Source: a virus (lineage: Duplodnaviria; Heunggongvirae; Uroviricota; Caudoviricetes). Taken from it: a stretch of DNA of 26,813 nt. Made by a program: the position numbers and the translations under genes. This document shows, piece after piece, positions 1-22,062 of this stretch (position 1 is the stretch's first letter; each line of letters starts with the position of its first letter). Location of the stretch: the IMG/VR virus record IMGVR_UViG_2537561933_000012. One strand, written 5' to 3'. Below the pieces are notes generated by a model. It worked only from the letters and a program-made list of their open reading frames with translations, had not been told where the DNA came from and made no database searches.

Positions 1-267
1 TTACTCTGCAGGTGAAGTCGGCCACTCAATATCAGGTGCGGTTGATGTATCAACACGGTTCAGCAACACCCGATACTTCTTCCAGGCTTCCAGCAACGAG
101 TTTTCTTCCTCCGTTGCGATCTCCAGATCTACAGCATCCTGAAGTGGCGCAATATGCTCACTGAATTCCTGGATGTAGAACTGTGTGGTGACGGTCTTCC
201 AGCCATTCGGCTCCTGCTGTATCGAAGCATACCAGGCTATTTCAATATCGCTATGCTGCGGCAGCAT
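1..267 (-). pseudogene. Tail fibre assembly protein (Tfa), C-terminal fragment, 88 aa ORF
   Basis: Translation ends ...[32 protein letters not shown], matching the recalled C-terminus of lambda Tfa; far too short for a full Tfa (~190 aa). Confidence 0.6.
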
Positions 268-9461: not shown

Positions 9462-9536
<75 letters not shown>

Positions 9537-9539
9537 ATA

Positions 9540-9615
<76 letters not shown>

Positions 9616-9617
9616 AC

Positions 9618-9694
9618 TGGACCGCCACCGGGGACTCGAACCTCGCACACTCAACTTAAAGAGTTGACGCTCTTTCCTGATGAGCTAGTGGCGG
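9618..9694 (-). tRNA. tRNA of uncertain identity (anticodon positions read UUU, Lys-like, but loop is UCUUUAA with C at position 33)
   Basis: Acceptor CCGCCAC/GTGGCGG, T-loop TTCGAGT, CCA encoded; non-canonical anticodon loop and one A-C mismatch in the T-stem. Confidence 0.5.
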
Positions 9695-9695
9695 T

Positions 9696-9771
9696 TGGTG
9701 GCCCTTGCTGGATTTGAACCAGCGACCTGGCGATTATGAGTCGCTCGCTCTCACCACTGAGCTAAAGGGCC
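9696..9771 (-). tRNA. tRNA-Ile2 (anticodon CAU, ileX/ileZ-like)
   Basis: GGCCCTTTAGCTCAGTGGT...CTCATAA...GGTTCAAATCC...AAGGGCCACCA, close to recalled E. coli ileX. Confidence 0.8.
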
Positions 9772-12288: not shown

Positions 12289-13338
12289 TTACCCAAGCAC
12301 GCCAGTTGCAAAGGCGTGATCAAGAAAACGAAAAATTAAATCAACCTGAGAACCATGCTTTTCTTCGAACGCCAGCGGATCCGCATGAAGCTCGTTGTGA
12401 TGCTCCCGACACAGCGGTAGCGTGAAAATATCGTGAGATTTTGTCCCCATTCCGCCCTGACCATGACCAATCAGGTGATGGGGATCGTCGGCTGGCTTAC
12501 CACAACACGCACACGGCTGTGTCTTCACCCAGCGAGTGTATTTCTCGTTAACCCAGCGGCGACGTTTAGGTCGTTTCATGAAAGATTCCGGAGACTCAGG
12601 ATCAACGGCAATGCTGACCACCGTCTTTTCCTGTGGTGGGTTCTGTTGCTGGTGGGCGTGAGGCAGCGGCGCAAGATTTTTTGTGCGCTGTTTCAGTATG
12701 CTGGTGGCGGTCTGCTCTCCCGGTACGATGTCGCTTTCACGGTACATGGAGCGGATTTTTTCCACACGCAACCCCAGCGAACGACGTAATACCGCTTCCG
12801 GTAGCGCGTCCGCCACCTGATTGCGGACCGCCCACCAGGATAATTCAGCCAGAGATAATTCACGCTCCTGCGTACCGCTTATTGCGTGACCGATGACGTC
12901 AATCATCCATGCTGACAGGTTTTGATGAGCAAGTTGCTCGAGTGATTCGGATGTCTGGTCACGCAGCTGGTTGTCGCAGTGCCAGCACAACACCATTGCG
13001 CCGGTACCATAACGGTGAATAACGGTTTCGCTGTGATGATAATCGCCGTGTGGCCACTGGCAGGATTTAATATGGCGCAACAGCCAGTCAGACAATGCAC
13101 CAGCACCACCAGCAGCACGAATCACCCGCTCATCGCTGAAAAATGGCAGTAATGATTTATCCTCCGCCAGCGGCTGGCGAACGGCAGGAACGACCCCGGA
13201 CGGCAGACCGCGCATGCTTTTTGGCTCCGGTTCAACCAGCACTCTGCCGTTATGGAATACCTGCATGGATTCACGACCTGGCTTAACGATAACCACCCCA
13301 AGTTCCGGCACCAGAACAGGTCGAAGTAATACCCGCAC
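12289..13338 (-). CDS. DUF968/YdfU-like nin-region protein with C-terminal Cys/His cluster, 349 aa
   Basis: C-terminal CACCGKPADDPHHL...CREHHNELH (HNH/zinc-finger-like); position between a small nin ORF and rusA as in Qin ydfU (recalled). Confidence 0.55.
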   Translation of the reverse strand: MRVLLRPVLVPELGVVIVKPGRESMQVFHNGRVLVEPEPKSMRGLPSGVVPAVRQPLAEDKSLLPFFSDERVIRAAGGAGALSDWLLRHIKSCQWPHGDYHHSETVIHRYGTGAMVLCWHCDNQLRDQTSESLEQLAHQNLSAWMIDVIGHAISGTQERELSLAELSWWAVRNQVADALPEAVLRRSLGLRVEKIRSMYRESDIVPGEQTATSILKQRTKNLAPLPHAHQQQNPPQEKTVVSIAVDPESPESFMKRPKRRRWVNEKYTRWVKTQPCACCGKPADDPHHLIGHGQGGMGTKSHDIFTLPLCREHHNELHADPLAFEEKHGSQVDLIFRFLDHAFATGVLG

Positions 13339-13339
13339 G

Positions 13340-13612
13340 TTACCTCCAGATGCGTTGCTGGAATGTGCGGGACGGACGCGGTGGGCGTTCGGAATAAGGG
13401 AGCCTGACAGAAATTATCCAGTGTCGGAAGTCAGGGCCGAGGTCTTTCTGAAAGTCGTACCCACGCCTGCGGTAGTTCTGAATCAGCCATTCGGCCTGTT
13501 CTTCAGTGCATGGGGCATGCTGGTACCAGTCATATTTGAATGTATGAGAACGCCGCCCGTGCCAGCTGGCAAGGTCGGTATCAGAATTGTGATGTTTGGT
13601 ATTGTGCGCCAT
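13340..13612 (-). CDS. Hypothetical nin-region protein, 90 aa
   Basis: ORF whose stop abuts the DUF968-like start; family not recognised. Confidence 0.4.
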   Translation of the reverse strand: MAHNTKHHNSDTDLASWHGRRSHTFKYDWYQHAPCTEEQAEWLIQNYRRRGYDFQKDLGPDFRHWIISVRLPYSERPPRPSRTFQQRIWR

Positions 13613-13682
13613 CGGTTTTCTCTGCTGGCGCAGCAGGTGCCAGTTGTTCAGGCTGGCCTGTAGATTGTAAACCAGAATACGT

Positions 13683-13710
13683 AAAACAAAAAACCCGCCG
13701 AAGCGGGTTA
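13683..13710 (-). terminator. Rho-independent terminator downstream of the HTH-peptidase gene
   Basis: AACCCGC-CGAA-GCGGGTT hairpin followed on the minus strand by TTTTTTGTTTT; the 23 bp core is identical to 15523-15545. Confidence 0.6.
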
Positions 13711-13713
13711 TGC

Positions 13714-14835
13714 CTAGTGAATTTTGCCTCTAAGAGTTCGGTAAGATTGTAGTGAAACAACATCACCACTTCCTGGCAGTTCATGAACCGCAGGAAGATC
13801 ATCTCCTACTAACTCATAAAAAATGTCCACTTCTATATCCATTTCATCAGCTATACGCTGTGGGTCGTATCCTAACTCTTCAAATAAAAACGATAAAGCC
13901 CGACGGAATAACTCAGGACGCTCATGAGGGATTAGATAATCTTCTTTTTCATCAATAGCTTCCCCTTTCCGTTTCAACCCCATAAATGCAGTTCTGTACT
14001 GCTCATCAGTCAAAAGTCCTAATTGATGAGCCCTGTAAACAATGGCAGCCTTACTTACTTTCCATGTCAACTTAAATTGGCTTAGTCCCTGCCAATTTAT
14101 CCTCCCCCCCACAGGTCTTGGAAAATATTTCGCCATCGACGTTCTGGGAAGCAACAGAGCAGAGGCAAAACGGTTTGCCTGGGATTCAGTTAATCTATCC
14201 CCAGTAGAAATTCCTTCATGAAGAATCAAATGGGCAACCTCATGAGCAATATCAAAGCGTTGCCTACAAGGTGAATTTTTAGCTGTATTTCGAACAATAA
14301 AAGGCCTTCGTAGAGGAACAGACAGTGCATCTACTTCATCCGAAACGGAGTCAAATGAAGTAACAAACGCCCCAAGTTTCTCGGCAAGGCGAGTCATATT
14401 TTCAATTGGGCCAAAGCCTAAGCCCCACTCAATACGACATTTTTCTGCCGCTCGCTCGATATCTTCTTGTGTATGGACACGAAATTCAGGAAATCGAACA
14501 GGTGACAAATTAAGGTTATCTTCAAATACATCAATAAAACGACGATAAAACTCAGCCTTAGCGAGTGTTGATAGCTTCGTTGACATCCTTGTCGAGGCGC
14601 GTTTACGAAAATGTACAATCTCTTCATTAACAGGAGAATGTTCCTGCCCTTCGAAAAAGGCGGGCTTCACGCGCAAAACCTCGGCTAATTTATTTATAAG
14701 CTCTGGGGATGGAGTAGCTGAACCAGACTCCAGTCGCTGTACATACTGGCGTGTTTTTTCAACCTTCTCAGCAACCTGCTCCAGAGATAGCTCGTGATAC
14801 AGACGAGCAAGTCTTAAATTAGTACCGTTAAACAC
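13714..14835 (-). CDS. XRE-family HTH fused to ImmA/IrrE-type (M78-like) zinc metallopeptidase domain, 373 aa, GTG start
   Basis: N-terminal HTH (LSLEQVAEKVEKTRQYVQRLESG); HEXXH motif HEVAHLILH; GGGTGA Shine-Dalgarno-like sequence before the start. Confidence 0.75.
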   Translation of the reverse strand: MFNGTNLRLARLYHELSLEQVAEKVEKTRQYVQRLESGSATPSPELINKLAEVLRVKPAFFEGQEHSPVNEEIVHFRKRASTRMSTKLSTLAKAEFYRRFIDVFEDNLNLSPVRFPEFRVHTQEDIERAAEKCRIEWGLGFGPIENMTRLAEKLGAFVTSFDSVSDEVDALSVPLRRPFIVRNTAKNSPCRQRFDIAHEVAHLILHEGISTGDRLTESQANRFASALLLPRTSMAKYFPRPVGGRINWQGLSQFKLTWKVSKAAIVYRAHQLGLLTDEQYRTAFMGLKRKGEAIDEKEDYLIPHERPELFRRALSFLFEELGYDPQRIADEMDIEVDIFYELVGDDLPAVHELPGSGDVVSLQSYRTLRGKIH

Positions 14836-14845
14836 ATTTCACCCA

Positions 14846-15439
14846 CTATTTGCTATTTTGTTTCTTTTCCTTCTCAGTCTTAGACGCACTGATAGGTTCT
14901 AGTTCGATAGGTACCGGTGCTGGAGGTACATCATCGACAGAGTTCAGCATAACAACACGGTCCGCACCATATGTCCAAGTTGACACGATCTCACCAAACA
15001 CGTTATAGCCATTAAAAATGACTCTACCCCCCTCGCCTTCAAATTCAGGCTTTTCAACCACAAAGCGATGCATAGTTGGAGTAGTCTCCTCTGACTCAAA
15101 GAGTCGATCAGCATCATTTCTTTTGAAAAAACCGCGTTTCTTGGGGTTATCTGCGTCATCAGTAAAGAAACGAATAGGGACATTCCCAATTGAAAACGTA
15201 AGATCCATGCCAGGATTAAGTAGTCTTAACCAGTCATATGTCTTTCGTACGCACATTTGTAGCAACGCCTGCCGCTGACGCCCAAATGTACAACCACCAC
15301 GAGTGTAATTATCATCATAGGGCGATGACAATAACTCATGAGTAATATCCTGTATCCTGAGCAACTCCTCAGCTATAATGGTTAAACGCACCTCTGTTAA
15401 CTCAGGAAAGAACTCCCAAGGGAATGGATGGTTCTGCAT
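14846..15439 (-). CDS. Hypothetical protein, ~197 aa, upstream partner of the HTH-peptidase gene (candidate effector)
   Basis: ORF ending 10 nt before the HTH-peptidase start; ATG at 15439 with GGAG about 10 nt upstream; no family recognised. Confidence 0.55.
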   Translation of the reverse strand: MQNHPFPWEFFPELTEVRLTIIAEELLRIQDITHELLSSPYDDNYTRGGCTFGRQRQALLQMCVRKTYDWLRLLNPGMDLTFSIGNVPIRFFTDDADNPKKRGFFKRNDADRLFESEETTPTMHRFVVEKPEFEGEGGRVIFNGYNVFGEIVSTWTYGADRVVMLNSVDDVPPAPVPIELEPISASKTEKEKKQNSK

Positions 15440-15520
15440 AGACACTTCTCCGCCTAATCCGTGCAAAAAACGACTTTTGTCAACCAAGATATTGGTGCAT
15501 ATTCATAATTTTGTCAACCA

Positions 15521-15546
15521 ATAAAAAACCCGCCGAAGCGGGTTAA
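15521..15546 (-). terminator. Rho-independent terminator upstream of the two-gene cassette
   Basis: Same AACCCGCCGAAGCGGGTT hairpin plus T-run as 13683-13710. Confidence 0.6.
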
Positions 15547-15889
15547 GTGCGGGTGCGTTGAGGATGCCTGACACATCAGAGGTGGCGAGGGATTTCTCCC
15601 TCGCCTGGTCTCTTACTCCTCAGGTTCGTAAGCTGTGAAGACAGCGACCTCCGTCTGGCCGGTTCGGATTCGTACCTCGCAGAGGTCTTTCCTCGTTATC
15701 AGTACCGCAACAATTTCGTATTCATGATTCATTTCATCTAAAACAGTTCATAAACCTAAATAAATTCAAAAAATCACAACACAAATAAATATAAATTATC
15801 TCATCCTGAAGAACGATAGGATTATTTAGAATTAATAACAATTAATGTAACAATAATTATCAATCCAGATTATTCAAATAAAATGTCAT

Positions 15890-16936
15890 TTACCATATGG
15901 AGTTGTGAATGAACTTTAATTCATTTTTTATTTTGTTAACAGATAAATTCACGGATGTCCTAACTCTATTCACAGTCATTGCATCTCCTGGATTTAACAA
16001 CTCTAATGGTTTAGACTTAGCACTTGACATTCTGCCACTACCCAGAAAATCATCAAGAATCACAATGTGATTATTAGGATCATCTGTTGTAAAATTACTA
16101 ATATTTTGTCGAATTACCTCTCTTACAGCTTCGATGTACATTTTTGTCTGTTGATTTGGTTTATTCCTTGCTCCTGCCACTGTTGACCATCCGCAATGGG
16201 TAATAACCACCATCTGAATTTTTGGTGTATGGCCATCAGACGGCATTATCTTTCTAAATTCTGATGTTGGTTTAGTCAGAGTATCAATAAGTAATCTTAA
16301 TGAATTAATCGATTGCTGATCTGTCCTCACTGGAACTATTAAAGCATCTGTTGCATGCCAAGATAAATGCGTCGCTCCAGAGAAAAAAGGTGATGTATCA
16401 ATTAACGCTTTTGTAGTACCAGTTTCAACCATTTCTCTGGCTATTTCTTTCTTCAGAGAAAAAAGAATTGTATCAATAACAACCTGCTGAGTAGCCCCAG
16501 AAATTGTTCTGGCTTGAGCCAGAGCATTCGCCATTTGCGTAGGTAGAAGATAAAGTTGACTATCAGATTGAATAAAATAGTTATTCTTGCCCGCAAACCA
16601 AGCATTAGTTGATGATACTAGCTTTGCAGCACGCGTTGCAAATCCAAGCCCTGGAACAAAATAAGGCATTAAGAGGTCATTTGCAGTTGTGCTAGACGAA
16701 GATGCATAATTATTGTCAAAAAAATATGATAAATTTCCTTGCGGGCACGTATCCACGATTAATGCGTTATCCGCCAAATATGACAGATTAAAAGTTAAAG
16801 ATGTCTTACCAATGCCTCCCCGTAAATTACATACTGTATATTTATCATATTTCGGCAAATTAAGACTTCTTACATTACCGTCAGCAACTTCGAATTGACG
16901 CTCTATCAGAGCATTAACATTTGATTCACTAGTCAT
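15890..16936 (-). CDS. ParA/MinD-like P-loop ATPase (deviant Walker A), 348 aa, in an AT-rich island
   Basis: Walker A-like NLRGGIGKTS near the N-terminus; GGTGG Shine-Dalgarno-like sequence before the ATG; flanking DNA conspicuously AT-rich. Confidence 0.65.
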   Translation of the reverse strand: MTSESNVNALIERQFEVADGNVRSLNLPKYDKYTVCNLRGGIGKTSLTFNLSYLADNALIVDTCPQGNLSYFFDNNYASSSSTTANDLLMPYFVPGLGFATRAAKLVSSTNAWFAGKNNYFIQSDSQLYLLPTQMANALAQARTISGATQQVVIDTILFSLKKEIAREMVETGTTKALIDTSPFFSGATHLSWHATDALIVPVRTDQQSINSLRLLIDTLTKPTSEFRKIMPSDGHTPKIQMVVITHCGWSTVAGARNKPNQQTKMYIEAVREVIRQNISNFTTDDPNNHIVILDDFLGSGRMSSAKSKPLELLNPGDAMTVNRVRTSVNLSVNKIKNELKFIHNSIW

Positions 16937-17143
16937 ATCGCCACCATTAGTTTTACACTTTTATTGATGATATGGAAAACTAACCTAGTTGTCAACAATG
17001 GATTAAAAAACAAACACACAAGCGTTTATCAAAAGCACCTTGATTGGTGATACTACCGTGTCTTTCAGCCAAACAGTTCAGTATGTAAAGCGAATCCAAC
17101 ATCAATTAAGAACGTTTTCAGCGCTCCCCCAGTTGTCTAGATG

Positions 17144-17420
17144 TCAAACTTCATGCGCTCTCCTGTCGAAATAAACGTACTGATTAATCATGCCCAAGGA
17201 CATTTCGCGTTTTACAGCGATATCACGGCGGGGAACTCCACACTGATGAAGCTTCCGCACTAGCTCAATATCGCTTTGCGGATGTTTTTTTGATTGGTTA
17301 TAACCCCCCCTCTTAACATCCTATTGATACCCAGTTCCTGCGCTTTCGCTCTGACAGCATAACTAGAACGATCAATCAACCCTCCTATGCTTTCGGCCGT
17401 CAACGCGTCTACACAATTGC
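17144..17420 (-). pseudogene. HTH-like small ORF disrupted by a frameshift at a C7/G7 homopolymer (17304-17310)
   Basis: Frame 1 reads LTAESIGGLIDRSSYAVRAKAQELGINRMLRGG, frame 2 continues YNQSKKHPQSDIELVRKLHQCGVPRRDIAVKREMSLGMINQYVYFDRRAHEV. Confidence 0.35.
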
Positions 17421-17876
17421 CTAAGCGCCATGATTTCCCTCATGCACAACCTGTTCACCGAATGTCTCTCGAAAACCATTCTGGTAAAATGCCAGTACAC
17501 GCTGCATAGCTTCGCTCTTCCGGCACTCGCGACAGATTATGTTCTGACGCCTGTCGTAGCGACGTATTTCTCCGTCAGGTAATGACCAGATAAGGTCCGG
17601 ATCAACCGCAGATGGTTTCTTCAGCTTTGCCCTTGAGAGCTTTTTACGGGCATTTTGCCAGTCCTTACGCGCCTGTTCAGACGGGAATAACCCGTAACCA
17701 GAGTTGTATACATCGCCACTGGCAACCAGCTCTCTGGCCAGAACGCTCATCAGATATCTTGTTGCCCCAGTTTTAGTTTCCAGTTGTCGTAACGTCTCGC
17801 GCCCACTCTGGCGTACGAGTTCAACAACCTGCCCTTTAATTTTTTCCCGCTCTTCTTGTGTAAAAACTTTTGCCAC
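17421..17876 (-). CDS. Hypothetical replication-module protein, 151 aa
   Basis: ORF immediately downstream of the replication initiator; basic, Cys pair CRECRK; family not recognised. Confidence 0.45.
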   Translation of the reverse strand: MAKVFTQEEREKIKGQVVELVRQSGRETLRQLETKTGATRYLMSVLARELVASGDVYNSGYGLFPSEQARKDWQNARKKLSRAKLKKPSAVDPDLIWSLPDGEIRRYDRRQNIICRECRKSEAMQRVLAFYQNGFRETFGEQVVHEGNHGA

Positions 17877-17916
17877 AAGCCCTCCTGAAAATTACCTCAT
17901 GACCAGAAATTAACAC

Positions 17917-18993
17917 TTACCCCCTGAAGCCCGGCGGAATTTCGTTATCCGGTTCAGAAATATGATTCACACAACGCTGGTTGTTCGTGCCGCTTACCGG
18001 GAGCAACCAGGGGTTCTCAAAATTCCGGTCCGGTCCAAAAAACGTCGTCGCTCGCTGAACAAATTCCGTTCCCGTTTTCCCGGTAGCCGCCAAGTATCTT
18101 GCGTAACGCCTCACGCCATCCAGCATGGCCTCTGGTGGCACCCCCTCGCGTAATCTGGCCTTCCAGGCACTGAAAGCGGATTTCTTCGGGTTTGCCCCGG
18201 CACGCAACGGGTATTCCCGCCAGACCTGTTCGAACACATCAGGATAATCCACTCGTCCCACAGGCTGCCCGGTGTTTTCCGGGACTACCCGATCGGCTTC
18301 CCGCTGAATGGCGGAATCGGCTTCAGGCTGCTGAAGTTGGTGTGATTGCTCCTGCCTTGCGGTCATCACCTGCTGCACAGCGCCCGAATCGGCTTTCAGC
18401 GCATACGCTGAATCGGCTTCCGGTGTCGTGCCTGCGGGCTGGCCAGGAGTGACGGTCTGAACATCCCCTGCCTGGTTCGTGGCGTTTTTTACGCCATGGA
18501 CCATAGTGTTTTGATCTTCTTGATCTGTATCTTTATCTGTATCTTTATCTGTCGTGACTCGTCGTGACATGTGCGTGACATTTCGTGACTCGCCGTGACA
18601 ATCGCCATTTTGTTCCCGCTTTCTTTCCCTCTCTCGCTGCGCCCTCTTGCGCTCTGCCGGAGATTTTGCGGTTTGCGAAATATTGCCGTTGTCCTCTTTC
18701 AGCACCTGGCGTTTTTCCCATCCAGTGATTAAATCACCATCAAGTACCCGCCCCTGCATCGTCTGCAAAATTGAATCAATTACCTCTTCTGTCACGTCGA
18801 GCGCACTTGCCAAATCTTCTGTCGTGACATCAATGTGACCTCGCGTGACATTTCGTGACGCGCTCACCAGGAGGTGGATATACACTGCCATCACTGTTGC
18901 AATTGGCTGCCCTGACCCCCTGGCAATTGTTCGCCACTTAGGGTCATTTGGCATGTCATGCCATAATCTGAGCCAGGCGTTAGCCATACTCAC
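17917..18993 (-). CDS. Replication initiation protein (lambda O functional analogue, YdaU/DUF1376-like N-terminus) containing the origin iterons
   Basis: N-terminal MANAWLRLWHDMPNDPKWRTIARGSG; two iteron arrays inside the gene; acidic TDKDTDKDTD stretch encoded by one of them. Confidence 0.6.
   Translation of the reverse strand: MSMANAWLRLWHDMPNDPKWRTIARGSGQPIATVMAVYIHLLVSASRNVTRGHIDVTTEDLASALDVTEEVIDSILQTMQGRVLDGDLITGWEKRQVLKEDNGNISQTAKSPAERKRAQRERERKREQNGDCHGESRNVTHMSRRVTTDKDTDKDTDQEDQNTMVHGVKNATNQAGDVQTVTPGQPAGTTPEADSAYALKADSGAVQQVMTARQEQSHQLQQPEADSAIQREADRVVPENTGQPVGRVDYPDVFEQVWREYPLRAGANPKKSAFSAWKARLREGVPPEAMLDGVRRYARYLAATGKTGTEFVQRATTFFGPDRNFENPWLLPVSGTNNQRCVNHISEPDNEIPPGFRG
18515..18600. 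repeat. Origin iterons: five CGTGAC repeats at 10-11 bp spacing preceded by tandem ATCTGTATCTTT repeats
   Basis: CGTGAC at 18553, 18563, 18574, 18584, 18594, read directly from sequence. Confidence 0.7.
18790..18860. repeat. Second iteron cluster (CGTGAC/TGTGAC x4 plus an inverted GTCACG copy)
   Basis: Copies at 18823, 18834, 18843, 18854; GTCACG at 18791. Confidence 0.5.
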
Positions 18994-19058
18994 CTCTTTT
19001 GATACCGAATCTTTTTACTCACAAATTGCCGGAAGTGATCCGGTATGAATATTGCGAG

Positions 19059-19484
19059 TCAATGCACAGCCACAATATTTCCTGCAGGGCCACCACGATT
19101 CATCTGGTTGAAACCAGCGATCGCCACTGCGACAAAATCATCAGCGTCTCTCACCAGTCGTTCCCGCGTCTCCACTAGTTCCCGAAAATACGCTGAGCTA
19201 TGACTGCGCATTCGGGCCACCAGCAGAGGTGGCATTGCTTTTTCGATAGCTGGTAACAACGCCTGAATTTTTTTAACCGCATCAGGGGTGTCTTTCTCCA
19301 CCCAGCGGAAAATTTTCTGAGTATTGCGAGCCAGGGCTTCCGGATGGCTGTCGTCATACAGTTCCGGGAACGTCATTCCCAGCTCGAAATACGCTTTGGT
19401 AATTTTCGCAGCCGGTACTTTTTCGCCGTCCGGATGCGCCCAGGCATTCATCGCCATGCGGATGTGTTCATGCTTGATTTTCAT
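19059..19484 (-). CDS. YdaT-like protein (cII position), 141 aa
   Basis: Size and position after the Cro-like gene as for ydaS-ydaT in Rac (recalled); no sequence comparison made. Confidence 0.45.
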   Translation of the reverse strand: MKIKHEHIRMAMNAWAHPDGEKVPAAKITKAYFELGMTFPELYDDSHPEALARNTQKIFRWVEKDTPDAVKKIQALLPAIEKAMPPLLVARMRSHSSAYFRELVETRERLVRDADDFVAVAIAGFNQMNRGGPAGNIVAVH

Positions 19485-19735
19485 GAATCAACTCCCATCA
19501 GCTTTTTCGTAGTAGTTTTATTCCTGCCAATAGTTAAAATTGCATCGGCAGAAAATAATCCGTTTGATGCAAGAGCGATTTTTTCAGCGTAATTTGTTTC
19601 GCCGGTATATTCTGTGCGAGGCAATTTTCCGTTATCCATCCATTTATAGATTGCTCTTTGGCTGACACCACAAACGTCGGCCACAACAGCAACGCGAACA
19701 GTTTTGATTACATCTTCAAGTGTTTTCTGGTTCAT
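19481..19735 (-). CDS. Cro/DicC-like HTH regulator, 84 aa from the ATG at 19735
   Basis: HTH-like VADVCGVSQRAIYKWMDNG; GAGGGTGAT Shine-Dalgarno before the ATG; divergent from the repressor. Confidence 0.6.
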   Translation of the reverse strand: MNQKTLEDVIKTVRVAVVADVCGVSQRAIYKWMDNGKLPRTEYTGETNYAEKIALASNGLFSADAILTIGRNKTTTKKLMGVDS

Positions 19736-22004: not shown

Positions 22005-22062
22005 TTTCTGGTGGCGTTTAGCGGTATCAGTTTTACTCCGTGACTGCTCTGCCGCCCTTTTT
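22005..22062 (+). ncRNA. dicF: DicF small RNA with intrinsic terminator
   Basis: TTTCTGGTGGCGTTTAGCGGTATCAGTTTTACTCCGTGACTGCTCTGCCGCCCTTTTT, two mismatches to the recalled K-12 DicF; upstream of dicB. Confidence 0.75.

What the first reader, a model, noticed from the sequence alone, without database searches (positions are those of the whole stretch)
15546..16936. AT-rich island with a lone ParA-like ATPase and a GC-rich structured non-coding segment
A 348 aa protein with a deviant Walker A (RGGIGKTS) lies alone in strongly AT-rich DNA inside the early-right operon. No partner ParB or centromere-like repeats are visible. Its 3' flank (15546-15720) switches abruptly to GC-rich sequence with stable hairpins (for example GGCGAGGG-ATTTCT-CCCTCGCC at 15584-15605) and no convincing ORF. 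It could be an sRNA, a remnant of another gene, or a regulatory RNA element tied to the ATPase.
Basis: partly seen in the sequence, partly recalled or inferred. Interest (0 to 1): 0.55.

Follow-up and report, generated by a model that had tools for sequence, protein, structure and literature searches.

The report
Hok toxin remnant beside solo ParA-like gene
The "structured non-coding" GC-rich block is the leftover 3' end of a common hokD toxin gene, cut off when a foreign single-gene cassette landed in this E. coli prophage; that cassette encodes a partner-less ParA-type ATPase of unknown function, which in most relatives travels across bacterial phyla with its own promoter and a palindromic DNA site.

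Summary

**GC-rich block (15523-~15714, minus strand).** It is not an sRNA tied to the ATPase. It is codons ~22-51 of hokD plus the hok 3'UTR hairpin and terminator. It is 95-99% identical to hokD loci in about 4,200 E. coli records. The sok/mok leader and the N-terminal membrane segment are gone, and RefSeq already calls it a pseudogene.

**ATPase (15890-16936, minus strand).**
- Its AT-rich cassette occurs in only 14 of 5,426 E. coli genomes. RosmerTA lies next to it as an independently variable cassette.
- The family is compact and very conserved: 50-67% identity across at least six phyla, dN/dS about 0.02.
- No neighbouring gene is conserved across about 135 loci, so there is no ParB.
- Arg replaces the signature lysine and Cys replaces the catalytic Asp, as in BcsQ. 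This implies ATP-driven dimerisation with very slow hydrolysis.

**New finding.** A palindrome (TTAGTTTTnC...GnAAAACTAA) overlaps or brackets the gene's promoter. It is detectable in about two-thirds of homologue loci, at an outer span of 37 or 58-59 bp. A distant phage subfamily instead has 19-bp iterons.

I infer a self-regulating single-gene cassette. Its biological role is unknown.

The parts
15523..15545 (-). Intrinsic terminator of the hokD transcript (AACCCGCTTCGGCGGGTT followed by a T-run). It now probably also ends the ATPase transcript.
   Evidence: Terminator scan, stem 15527-15544. Identical in the intact hokD locus of strain Ec-U5.
15584..15605 (-). GC-rich 8-bp hairpin in the hok 3'UTR, just downstream of the hok stop codon.
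   Evidence: Sequence; part of the minimum-free-energy fold; conserved in intact hokD with one arm substitution.
15613..15714 (-). 'hokD: the 3' two-thirds of a Hok/Gef type I toxin gene (about codons 22-51, ...LITRKDLCEVRIRTGQTEVAVFTAYEPEE). It lacks the sok/mok leader and most of the N-terminal membrane segment, so it is a pseudogene.
   Evidence: Pfam HOK_GEF 2.8e-16, positions 14-42 of 42; phrog_251 2.2e-17. 95-99% nucleotide identity to hokD in about 4,200 E. coli records. Homology with the intact locus breaks at about 15707-15716. RefSeq annotates it 'Hok/Gef family, missing N-terminus'. Rfam sok scores 111 bits in the intact locus and is absent from the window.
15715..15732 (-). Foreign AT-rich sequence that happens to supply an in-frame ATG, producing the chimeric 39-aa ORF (MNHEYEIVAV + the Hok C-terminus).
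   Evidence: ORF list; alignment with intact hokD shows no homology upstream of about 15714.
15733..15889 (.). AT-rich spacer (about 24-28% GC) between the ATPase stop codon and the hok remnant. It is not conserved with any homologue locus.
   Evidence: Composition. Homology to the Enterobacter copies ends one base after the stop codon.
15890..16936 (-). Solo ParA/MinD-family ATPase, 348 aa. Walker A is R39-GGIGK44-TS, C64 sits at the catalytic Asp position, and Walker B is IDTSP (D180).
16941..16945 (-). Probable Shine-Dalgarno sequence (GGTGG), 5-9 nt upstream of the ATG and directly after the right palindrome arm.
   Evidence: Read from the sequence. GGAGG or GGTGG occupies the same place in homologues.
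16947..16957 (-). Right arm of the promoter palindrome (TGTAAAACTAA on the minus strand).
   Evidence: Conserved across phyla at fixed spacing.
16967..16972 (-). -10 hexamer TATCAT, lying in the spacer between the two palindrome arms.
   Evidence: Promoter scan, 11 of 12 matches together with the -35 element.
16973..16983 (-). Left arm of the promoter palindrome (TTAGTTTTCCA).
   Evidence: TAGTT...AACTA at a span of exactly 35 nt in 38 of 90 unique homologue upstream regions, against 0.5 expected.
16990..16995 (-). -35 hexamer TTGACA. BLAST homology between the window and the Enterobacter (L006-L009) copies ends here; for two other copies (L101, L114) it runs to 17007.
17144..17475 (-). Decayed, frameshifted remnant of the small HTH 'DNA-binding protein' gene that follows the DUF977 gene in other lambdoid prophages. 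It marks the right-hand junction of the rearrangement.
   Evidence: blastn 68-74% identity to annotated DNA-binding/HTH genes. Close homology (>85% nucleotide identity) to other prophages resumes at 17481. It is broken into 38-aa and 47-aa ORFs.
13714..15487 (-). Downstream neighbour: the RosmerTA defence pair (RmrT 14846-15487, RmrA 13714-14835). It is an independently variable cassette and is not part of the ATPase unit.
   Evidence: PADLOC RmrT 6.9e-92 and RmrA 4.3e-201. Present with intact hokD but without the ATPase in Ec-U5. Absent from an otherwise 98%-identical ATPase-bearing prophage, L098.

Best explanation
**Shown.** Two unrelated things sit side by side.
1. The GC-rich structured block is the dead 3' end of a hokD type I toxin locus: the last 30 or so codons, the 3'UTR hairpin and the terminator. 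Hok mRNAs are heavily folded, which explains the structure. The sok antisense gene, the mok leader and most of the Hok membrane segment were lost in a replacement event.
2. That event brought in about 1.4 kb of AT-rich foreign DNA between the DUF977 gene and hokD, in the nin region of a lambdoid prophage.
3. The foreign DNA is a single-gene cassette. It has a near-consensus sigma-70-like promoter and one ORF, and the old hok terminator lies downstream.
4. The ORF encodes a ParA/MinD-fold P-loop ATPase from a compact family under strong purifying selection. The family has spread horizontally across at least six phyla and always occurs without a conserved partner gene.
5. A palindrome is detectable upstream of the gene in about two-thirds of homologue loci (TTAGTTTTnC ... 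GnAAAACTAA). Its half-sites overlap or bracket the promoter, with an outer span of 37 bp or of 58-59 bp. The roughly 21-bp difference is two helical turns.

**Inferred.**
- The palindrome is a DNA operator. Because nothing else is co-inherited with it, the ATPase itself is the likeliest binder, so the unit would autoregulate.
- The protein keeps its ATP-binding residues (K44, T45, D62, D180). It carries Arg in place of the trans-acting signature lysine and Cys in place of the water-activating Asp, the same two changes that make BcsQ a stable ATP sandwich dimer with very weak ATPase activity. I therefore expect an ATP-dependent dimer switch whose hydrolysis is slow or needs a trigger.

**Speculative.** The position argues for an accessory role in competition between mobile elements or in exclusion, rather than segregation of this integrated prophage. 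The cassette sits in variable cargo slots of prophages, plasmids and islands. It lies next to toxin-antitoxin and defence cassettes, and in a distant subfamily directly downstream of a cI-type repressor.
For: **hok remnant**
- Pfam HOK_GEF 2.8e-16 over profile positions 14-42 of 42.
- Matches to hokD-annotated loci in 4,704 of 5,426 E. coli genomes, about 4,200 records at 95-99% identity.
- The homology breakpoint lies inside the hok ORF.
- Rfam sok scores 111 bits in an intact locus and is absent here.
- RefSeq annotates a pseudogene.
- RNA fold z = -4.35.

**Cassette**
- Window 15715-17480 is found in only 14 genomes.
- Homology to the Enterobacter (L006-L009) copies (83.6% nucleotide, 96% amino acid) runs from the -35 hexamer to one base past the stop codon.
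- The promoter matches 11 of 12 consensus positions.
- Gene GC is below locus GC in five of six hosts checked.
- RosmerTA and the ATPase vary independently.

**Family**
- 706 homologues were found.
- Only 30 representatives score E<=1e-30 among 1.84 billion.
- 50-67% identity across Proteobacteria, Desulfobacterota, Firmicutes, Bacteroidota, Cyanobacteria and Planctomycetes.
- dN/dS 0.02 at dS about 1.5.
- No neighbour cluster is shared beyond near-identical loci in about 135 loci.
- In Aeromonas plasmids it sits beside a separate canonical ParA plus a small partner.

**Fold and active site**
- AlphaFold2 pLDDT 87.
- R39 and C64 are invariant in 39 sequences.
- C64 aligns with Soj D44 and McdA D38.
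- BcsQ carries the same Arg/Cys pair and retains ATP (PMC7840130; BLASTP).

**Palindrome**
- 38 of 90 unique upstream regions have TAGTT...AACTA at a span of exactly 35 nt, and 2 more at 36 nt, against 0.5 expected.
- Two discrete outer spans occur, 37 bp and 58-59 bp.
- Arm symmetry is 79% against 34-45% for slid controls, with 58 two-sided changes against 33 +/- 4.5 in shuffles, 0 of 500 reaching the observed value.
- The -35 element abuts the left arm and the -10 element lies between the arms in Proteobacteria and Desulfobacterota. The whole promoter lies between the arms in the 58-bp class. The palindrome abuts a consensus -10 in Lachnospiraceae.
- The RNA fold of the window copy is no better than chance, z = -0.47.
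- The 36%-identity phage subfamily has 4-6 direct repeats at an exact 19-bp period in 17 of 18 unique loci. There the gene lies directly downstream of a cI-like repressor.
Against: - Nothing shows that the ATPase binds the palindrome. No HTH or RHH domain is detected in it, and an unlinked factor cannot be excluded.
- Arm covariation fits an RNA or DNA hairpin as well as an operator. Only promoter geometry and the roughly 21-bp spacing step favour duplex DNA.
- The promoter is a consensus match, not a mapped start site. The scan found no more promoter-like sites in the region than in shuffled sequence (6 against 6.2).
- About a third of homologue loci show no palindrome under my criteria.
- The protein matches no PADLOC defence model above noise.
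- In Lachnospiraceae and some other non-proteobacterial genomes the immediate neighbours sampled are ordinary housekeeping genes. That fits a mobile-element-competition role poorly.
- There is no expression or phenotype evidence of any kind.
Confidence: 0.6

Rival explanations
1. One reading: the GC-rich block 15546-15720 is an sRNA or cis-regulatory RNA functionally tied to the ATPase.
For: - The block is strongly structured (z = -4.35).
- It ends in an intrinsic terminator.
- It gives a weak isrK-like Rfam match, E = 2e-4.
- It would form the 3'UTR of the ATPase mRNA, so a 3'UTR-derived RNA cannot be excluded.
Against: - It is hokD coding sequence plus 3'UTR.
- It occurs in more than 4,000 genomes without the ATPase.
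- ATPase homologues elsewhere carry no similar sequence downstream.
- The isrK score is 31 bits against a gathering score of 50, and the match is equally present in intact hokD.
Confidence: 0.04
2. The ATPase is an ordinary partition ATPase. Its ParB and centromere lie elsewhere in the prophage, and it serves an episomal stage.
For: - It has a ParA fold.
- It is annotated 'ParA family'.
- A repeat element lies upstream, as in type Ib par loci.
- Homologues occur on small plasmids.
Against: - No ParB is annotated in the flanking ~28 kb of this prophage and adjoining chromosome, which carries int and xis next to potC.
- No partner is conserved in about 135 loci, and there is no small downstream ORF.
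- The Aeromonas plasmids already carry a separate canonical ParA plus a small partner.
- Many copies are chromosomal singletons.
- The catalytic Asp is replaced.
Confidence: 0.05
3. The ATPase plus its palindrome (or iterons) is a one-protein partition or positioning module. The same protein would bind the specific site and the nucleoid, tethering or segregating whatever replicon carries it.
For: - The repeat element and the gene are co-inherited across phyla.
- The distant subfamily has iteron-like 19-bp arrays.
- It occurs on plasmids, integrative elements and temperate phages.
- The closest structural relatives are the cargo-positioning ATPases McdA and ParA.
Against: - The site sits exactly on the promoter, which simple autoregulation explains.
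- Each locus has a single site of two half-sites, not an array.
- Many copies are in chromosomes, where partition is not needed.
- A ParA with impaired hydrolysis would be a poor gradient motor.
Confidence: 0.12
4. The palindrome acts as an RNA hairpin in the 5'UTR, controlling mRNA stability or translation, and not as a DNA operator.
For: - The arms co-vary, and in some lineages pairing extends to 15-16 nt.
- In Lachnospiraceae the element lies between the -10 and the SD.
- Read-through from the phage early operon would transcribe both arms.
Against: - In most non-Firmicute loci the predicted -35 overlaps the left arm and the -10 lies between the arms. In the 58-bp class the whole promoter lies between them.
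- Spacing comes in two classes about 21 bp apart, while loop sequence and arm length vary.
- The window copy folds no better than shuffled sequence, z = -0.47.
Confidence: 0.15
5. In biological role, the gene is a single-gene anti-phage or anti-plasmid exclusion determinant expressed from the lysogen.
For: - It sits in a variable cargo slot next to RosmerTA.
- Homologues lie beside TA modules (CbtA, ParE, HicA), PDC-M38 and a HEPN PDC-M34B-like gene.
- One lies after attP in a P2-like phage, where the related phage has different cargo.
- In the distant subfamily it lies directly downstream of cI on the same strand, the position rexAB occupies in phage lambda (that comparison is from my own knowledge).
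- It has its own promoter.
Against: - No PADLOC model matches above noise.
- dN/dS of 0.02 and 50-67% identity across phyla are atypical for fast-evolving defence genes.
- No phenotype has been reported.
- Neighbours in Lachnospiraceae are housekeeping genes.
Confidence: 0.25

Closest known systems
hokD (relF) and other chromosomal hok/sok type I toxin-antitoxin loci of E. coli
   Same: The last 29 residues are identical to HokD (LITRKDLCEVRIRTGQTEVAVFTAYEPEE). The 3'UTR hairpin, the terminator and the position upstream of the nin-region genes in Qin-like lambdoid prophages also match. From my own knowledge, inactivation of chromosomal hok loci by rearrangement is well known.
   Different: Here the breakpoint lies inside the ORF. 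The sok/mok leader is missing entirely and is replaced by the ATPase cassette. The remnant cannot encode the membrane segment.
BcsQ, the cellulose-secretion SIMIBI/MinD-like ATPase (PDB 6yar, 6yb5)
   Different: This protein keeps the cis Walker A lysine (K44), where BcsQ has Thr. There is no BcsR partner and no bcs operon. The protein is about 100 residues longer. The NCBIfam score is 31 against a cut-off of 158. The gene is mobile and solo.
McdA (carboxysome positioning) and type Ib ParA/Soj
   Different: Those ATPases work with an adaptor (McdB or ParB) encoded next to them and keep the catalytic Asp. Here no adaptor is conserved and the Asp is Cys.
Type Ia ParA (P1 ParA, F SopA), which autoregulates at an operator in its own promoter
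   Same: A ParA-family gene preceded by an inverted repeat overlapping its promoter. These structures are among the highest-ranked Foldseek matches (TM-score 0.56-0.58 normalised to the query). That P1 ParA represses its own promoter through such a repeat is from my own knowledge.
   Different: Type Ia ParAs bind the operator through an N-terminal winged-HTH domain of about 100 residues and have a ParB co-repressor. This protein has only a 30-residue N-terminal helix before strand 1 and no ParB.
STM14_3218, the orphan ParA-like gene in the Gifsy-1 immunity region of Salmonella 14028s (Kurasz et al. 2023, PMC9879122)
   Same: A ParA-like ATPase without ParB in a strain-variable slot of a lambdoid prophage. 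The three-gene region containing it is needed for a host phenotype (RtcR activation) and lowers phage yield 2-4 fold.
   Different: It is 279 aa and part of a three-gene unit. It is an analogy of context only.

Membership tests
Hok/Gef type I toxin (hok/sok locus) | A conserved Hok C-terminal (periplasmic) region | tested here: met
   Pfam HOK_GEF 2.8e-16, profile positions 14-42 of 42. Near-identical DNA to the annotated hokD of Ec-U5 over this region.
Hok/Gef type I toxin (hok/sok locus) | A full ORF of about 50 aa with an N-terminal transmembrane segment | tested here: not met
   Homology starts at about codon 22. The first 10 residues of the 39-aa ORF are unrelated. RefSeq notes 'missing N-terminus'.
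Hok/Gef type I toxin (hok/sok locus) | A sok antisense RNA, mok leader and 5' regulatory fold | tested here: not met
   Rfam sok RF01794 scores 111 bits in the intact locus L002. There is no hit in the window at the gathering threshold or at E<=10.
ParA/MinD (SIMIBI) P-loop ATPases | The ParA/MinD fold | tested here: met
ParA/MinD (SIMIBI) P-loop ATPases | A deviant Walker A, KGGxGK[ST], with an N-terminal signature lysine | tested here: not met
   The motif is R39-GGIGK44-TS. The cis lysine is present, but the signature lysine is an invariant Arg in 39 of 39 family members.
ParA/MinD (SIMIBI) P-loop ATPases | A water-activating Asp in switch I (Soj D44, McdA D38, MinD D40) | tested here: not met
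   An invariant C64 aligns with Soj D44 and McdA D38.
ParABS-type partition system | An adjacent ParB, ParG or other adaptor gene | tested here: not met
   None in the annotated prophage. No neighbour is conserved in about 135 loci.
ParABS-type partition system | Centromere repeats next to the operon | tested here: inconclusive
   One conserved palindrome (two half-sites) lies on the promoter, and 19-bp iterons occur in the distant subfamily. Whether either acts as a centromere cannot be told from sequence.
ParABS-type partition system | Carried on a replicon that needs active segregation | tested here: not met
   This is an integrated prophage with int and xis next to potC. Many homologues are chromosomal singletons.
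BcsQ (cellulose biosynthesis) | Meets the NCBIfam TIGR03371 / Pfam CBP_BcsQ thresholds, with a bcs operon and BcsR partner | tested here: not met
   TIGR03371 scores 31.4 bits against a cut-off of 157.85. CBP_BcsQ scores 16.9 against 21.3. Both cover the N-terminal 45 residues only. No bcs genes are nearby.
Known anti-phage defence systems (PADLOC v2) | A match to a defence-protein model | tested here: not met
   The best match is PRTase_III-A at E = 1e-4 over 42 residues. That stretch lies inside the ParA core strand and loop (HIVILDDFLGSGR), so I judge it spurious.
Rfam sRNA families (isrK and others) for the GC-rich block | A score at or above the family gathering threshold | tested here: not met
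   isrK scores 31.2 bits against 50, and rsmX 24.9 against 56.

The most novel reading that the evidence does not exclude
The ATPase and its upstream palindrome (or 19-bp iterons in the distant subfamily) form a previously undescribed one-component ParA module. A partner-less, slowly hydrolysing ParA-fold protein would recognise a specific DNA site in its own promoter without a classical HTH or RHH domain. The module would move as a single-gene cassette between phages, plasmids, islands and chromosomes of at least six phyla. It would act either as a minimal self-tethering or partition device, or as a new kind of exclusion switch between mobile elements.
Probability: 0.3. Interest if true: 0.7.

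Novelty: new variant of a known kind. Interest (0 to 1): 0.45.

Why it matters
**hok remnant.** This is routine. It removes a false lead for a new sRNA and shows how a decayed type I toxin locus can look like a structured non-coding element.

**ATPase.** This is the part worth keeping. ParA/MinD ATPases are understood as two-component machines, an ATPase plus an adaptor on a cargo. Most 'orphan' members have no known cargo. Here is an orphan clade with four notable properties:
- It is extremely conserved yet promiscuously transferred.
- It always occurs alone.
- It shares the hydrolysis-crippling Arg/Cys substitutions of BcsQ.
- In about two-thirds of homologue loci it carries a phased palindromic site on its own promoter.

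If the protein binds that site, it would be a self-contained ParA module. It would also be a tractable system of about 1.1 kb for asking how a ParA fold reads specific DNA and what such a switch does for a prophage. The independent turnover of this cassette, RosmerTA and hokD also marks this nin-region slot as a cargo hot spot.

Tried and rejected
- **Rfam on the window.** Scans at gathering and at E<=10 gave no family for the GC block beyond sub-threshold isrK and rsmX hairpin-plus-terminator matches.
- **PRTase hint.** PADLOC PRTase_III-A and ShosT and Pfam PRTase-CE matched residues 262-311. I rejected this because the motif HIVILDDFLGSGR lies in a core ParA strand and loop of the model, and every structural neighbour is a ParA/MinD protein.
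- **Partner-gene search.** Six-frame ORFs of at least 50 aa within 5 kb in about 135 loci were clustered by all-against-all BLASTP. Only near-identical prophages shared neighbours. No small ORF was conserved downstream in the phage subfamily.
- **Flanking RNA or DNA.** Only the ORF and about 60 bp upstream are shared between copies.
- **Extra operator copies.** Half-site matches in the 26.8-kb window occur at chance level (8 against 8.8 expected), and only the promoter pair is real.
- **RNA-hairpin reading of the palindrome.** The window copy folds with z = -0.47.
- **Literature.** The accession WP_000200161 gave no hits. Searches for ParA-like genes with defence or prophage terms, and for orphan ParA in prophages, gave only the Gifsy-1 analogy. 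The RsoM1USA paper lists the gene as unexplained cargo.
- **Pooled neighbour scan.** I planned a pooled Pfam scan of about 165 neighbour ORFs but abandoned it as too noisy, because high-GC genomes give many spurious ORFs. I replaced it with 20 targeted neighbours.
- **Residue-to-operator correlation.** N-terminal helix residues (RQxxIS against RQxxIA) appear to track operator class. This is not controlled for phylogeny, so I do not use it as evidence.
Full report
**Setting.** The window is a lambdoid (Qin/DicF-type) prophage of enterotoxigenic E. coli. The region studied (window 13000-19500) is 100% identical to NZ_CP029981 and to 13 other genomes. Its early-right genes run on the minus strand in this order: a replication gene, DUF977, the ATPase, hok, RmrT/RmrA, DUF968, RusA and Q. 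All features below are on the minus strand.

**1. The observation**

The ORF, the RGGIGKTS motif, the AT-rich composition, the jump in GC at 15500-15700 and the hairpin at 15584-15605 are all as described. The GC-rich block folds far better than shuffled sequence as RNA, at -79.6 kcal/mol with z = -4.35. So the structure is real.

Two statements are wrong. First, there is a recognisable ORF in the block. Second, there is a repeat element next to the ATPase.

**2. The GC-rich block is a truncated hokD**

- The 39-aa ORF at 15613-15732 matches Pfam HOK_GEF at E = 2.8e-16, but only over profile positions 14-42 of 42. It also matches phrog_251 'MokW-like host killing'.
- Megablast of 15400-17200 against 5,426 complete E. 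coli genomes finds the first ~310 bases in 4,704 genomes. About 4,200 records match at 95-99% identity. The listed matches are annotated hokD.
- Alignment with an intact locus (strain Ec-U5, L002) shows near-identity from the terminator up to about 15707-15716. That point lies inside the hok ORF at about codon 21-22. Upstream of it there is no similarity.
- In the intact locus, Rfam's sok model, which covers the sok/mok leader, scores 111 bits. In the window it is absent even at E<=10.
- RefSeq already annotates a 'Hok/Gef family protein, missing N-terminus' pseudogene here.
- The only Rfam matches in the block are sub-threshold: isrK at 31 bits against 50, and rsmX. They cover the 3'UTR hairpin plus terminator and occur identically in the intact hokD locus.

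The block is therefore not an RNA element belonging to the ATPase.

**3. The island**

The segment from about 15715 to 17480 is present in only 14 genomes. Its right-hand part, 17144-17475, is a frameshifted relic of the small HTH gene that follows DUF977 in other prophages, at 68-74% identity. About 1.4 kb is therefore truly foreign.

Comparison with the closest non-E. coli copies (Enterobacter cloacae complex, 96% amino acid identity) is informative. DNA homology (83.6%) runs from 16995 to 15889, which is from the -35 hexamer to one base beyond the stop codon. The promoter is TTGACA-17-TATCAT, matching 11 of 12 consensus positions, and its core is conserved in all five close copies.

dN/dS between these copies is 0.02 at dS of about 1.4-1.6. 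The gene's GC is below that of its host locus in five of six genomes checked. This is a single-gene cassette with its own promoter, and the old hok terminator lies downstream.

RosmerTA (PADLOC RmrT 7e-92, RmrA 4e-201) is a separate cassette. It occurs with intact hokD and no ATPase in Ec-U5. It is missing from an otherwise 98%-identical ATPase-bearing prophage, L098.

**4. The ATPase family**

- A search of 5.8 billion proteins gives 706 hits. The top 120 are all about 346 aa and at least 62% identical, from Enterobacter, Yersinia, Aeromonas, Burkholderia, Massilia, Desulfovibrio, Sulfurovaceae, Mariprofundales and Magnetococcales.
- An exhaustive HMMER scan of 1.84 billion representatives finds only 30 with E<=1e-30. 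Canonical ParAs appear only at about 1e-6. The clade is compact and isolated.
- Species-representative genomes add Lachnospiraceae (dozens of species), Selenomonas, Clostridium, Paenibacillus, Muribaculaceae, Pseudanabaena, Synergistaceae and Thermoguttaceae, at 50-67% identity.
- In about 135 loci no neighbouring ORF cluster is shared beyond near-identical prophages.
- Contexts vary. They include TA modules (CbtA/CbeA, ParE/PaaA2, HicA), the edge of an integrative element, Tn3 and resolvases, integrases, and the candidate defence systems PDC-M38 and a PDC-M34B-like HEPN gene. In Lachnospiraceae and some other non-proteobacterial genomes the immediate neighbours sampled are plain housekeeping genes.
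- On Aeromonas plasmids the gene sits alone beside a separate canonical ParA plus a small partner.
- In the P2-like Ralstonia phage RsoM1USA a 35%-identical homologue lies after attP. The authors noted it as cargo absent from the related phage RSA1.
- In about 20 viral contigs the same distant subfamily lies directly downstream of a cI-type repressor on the same strand.

**5. Fold and active site**

The ATP-binding residues are conserved (K44, T45, D62, D180). Two catalytic positions are not canonical.
- The signature lysine is an invariant Arg (R39).
- The residue aligned with Soj D44 and McdA D38 is an invariant Cys (C64). These are the Asp positions replaced by Ala in the deposited Soj (2bek) and McdA (6nop) sequences.

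BcsQ has the same Arg/Cys pair. It is purified as an ATP-loaded sandwich dimer with only weak ATPase activity (PMC7840130). The BLASTP alignment used a BcsQ sequence recalled from memory. I infer an ATP-dependent dimer switch with slow or partner-triggered hydrolysis.

**6. A conserved palindrome on the promoter (new)**

The window carries TTAGTTTTCCA (16983-16973) and TGTAAAACTAA (16957-16947) on either side of the -10 hexamer. The same element is detectable upstream of about two-thirds of homologues:

| Lineage | Left arm | Right arm |
|---|---|---|
| Enterobacter, Aeromonas | TTAGTTTTCC | GGAAAACTAA |
| About 35 Lachnospiraceae, Yersinia | ATTAGTTTTAC | GTAAAACTAAT |
| Desulfovibrio | CTAGTTCCGC | GCGGAACTA |
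| Muribaculaceae | CTAGTTTTGCA | TGCAAAACTAG |
| Thermoguttaceae | ATTAGTTTTGC | GGAAAACTAAT |

- Of 90 unique upstream regions, 38 have TAGTT...AACTA at a span of exactly 35 nt and 2 at 36 nt. Shuffles give 0.5.
- Allowing one mismatch, the outer span is 37 bp in about 50 loci and 58-59 bp in about 9. The difference of about 21 bp is two helical turns.
- Arm symmetry is 79% against 34-45% for slid registers. There are 58 two-sided changes against 33 +/- 4.5 in shuffles, with 0 of 500 shuffles reaching the observed value.

Geometry argues for duplex DNA rather than RNA.
- In Proteobacteria, Desulfobacterota and Bacteroidota, a TTGAC(T) -35 element overlaps the left arm. A good -10 element lies 17 nt on, between the arms.
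- In the 58-bp class the entire promoter lies between the arms.
- In Lachnospiraceae the palindrome starts 3-5 nt after a consensus TATAAT.
- The window copy folds no better than chance as RNA, z = -0.47.

The 36%-identity subfamily has a different element: 4-6 direct NCCTGC repeats at an exact 19-bp period in 17 of 18 unique loci. The remaining locus, phage RsoM1USA, has the motif at irregular spacing. No small ORF is conserved downstream in this subfamily.

Nothing but the ATPase is co-inherited with these sites. The simplest reading is that the ATPase binds them and represses its own promoter. This is an inference, because no DNA-binding domain is detectable.

**7. What it does**

This is unknown. 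I rank the options as follows.
- **(a)** An autoregulated accessory switch used in competition or exclusion between mobile elements. Its position in cargo slots, its TA and defence neighbours and the cI-adjacent subfamily support this. The very strong conservation and the absence of any PADLOC hit weigh against a classical defence gene.
- **(b)** A one-protein tethering or partition module.
- **(c)** A canonical partition ATPase. This is effectively excluded.

A loosely analogous case is the orphan ParA-like STM14_3218 in Gifsy-1. The three-gene region containing it affects RNA-repair induction and phage yield (PMC9879122).

**8. Verdict**

The GC-rich 'structured non-coding segment' is ordinary and already annotated. 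The ATPase is an uncharacterised, distinctive variant of the ParA/MinD family, and in most relatives it carries a co-inherited promoter palindrome. It is of moderate interest and is directly testable.

Noticed in passing
window 13714-15487 (-): A complete RosmerTA defence pair (RmrT 213 aa, RmrA 373 aa with HTH plus an M78 peptidase domain) lies immediately downstream of the hok terminator. It is present or absent independently of the ATPase cassette in related prophages.
   Followed up: partly
window 17144-17475 (-): A frameshifted relic of a small HTH 'DNA-binding protein' gene that normally follows the DUF977 gene. The last ~20 codons of the DUF977 ORF (17421-17480) also lie outside the region of close homology (>85% nucleotide identity) to other prophages.
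   Followed up: partly
window 22006-22057 (+); 41-244 (-); 9465-9771 (-): Rfam hits above the gathering threshold: DicF sRNA (68.6 bits), IS009 RNA (129 bits), and an array of four tRNA genes in the late region of the prophage.
   Followed up: no
L116-L136 and L005 (viral contigs; for example L123 7750-7922): The 34-36%-identity subfamily of the ATPase has 4-6 direct NCCTGC repeats at an exact 19-bp period upstream, overlapping a TTGAC -35 element. The gene lies directly after a cI-like repressor gene. The exception is phage RsoM1USA (L005), where the motif spacing is irregular and the gene lies after attP.
   Followed up: partly
L026 6675-10759 (Selenomonas sputigena), also L027: Here the ATPase homologue lies between a VWA (CoxE-like) gene and an RtcB RNA ligase gene. 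This is curious given that a different orphan ParA-like gene in Gifsy-1 is needed for RtcR/RtcB induction (PMC9879122). It may be coincidence.
   Followed up: no
ATPase residues 13-19 (window ~16880-16900) versus palindrome columns 15-17: Homologues with RQxxIS in the N-terminal helix tend to have TTCCnCC-type half-sites, and those with RQxxIA tend to have TTTTnC-type half-sites. This is a possible protein-DNA co-variation, not controlled for phylogeny.
   Followed up: partly
window 16984-16990 (-) and L006 upstream region: Enterobacterial copies carry extra AACTA/TAGTT core motifs. One (AACTAG) overlaps the -35 hexamer. In Enterobacter another TTAGTT lies in the spacer. More than two binding cores may therefore exist.
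   Followed up: no
window 15523-15604 (-) and L002 6124-6205 (-): The hokD 3'UTR (hairpin plus terminator) gives a reproducible sub-threshold match to the Salmonella Gifsy-1 sRNA family isrK (about 31 bits, E about 2e-4) in both truncated and intact loci. It may simply reflect a shared hairpin-plus-terminator architecture.
   Followed up: partly
L020 5432-7426 (-) and L087 6582-7757 (+): Candidate defence systems lie within 2-3 kb of ATPase homologues: PDC-M38 A+B (an OLD/AbiL-like ATPase plus a DUF3226 protein) and a PDC-M34B-like Swt1-HEPN protein.
   Followed up: no
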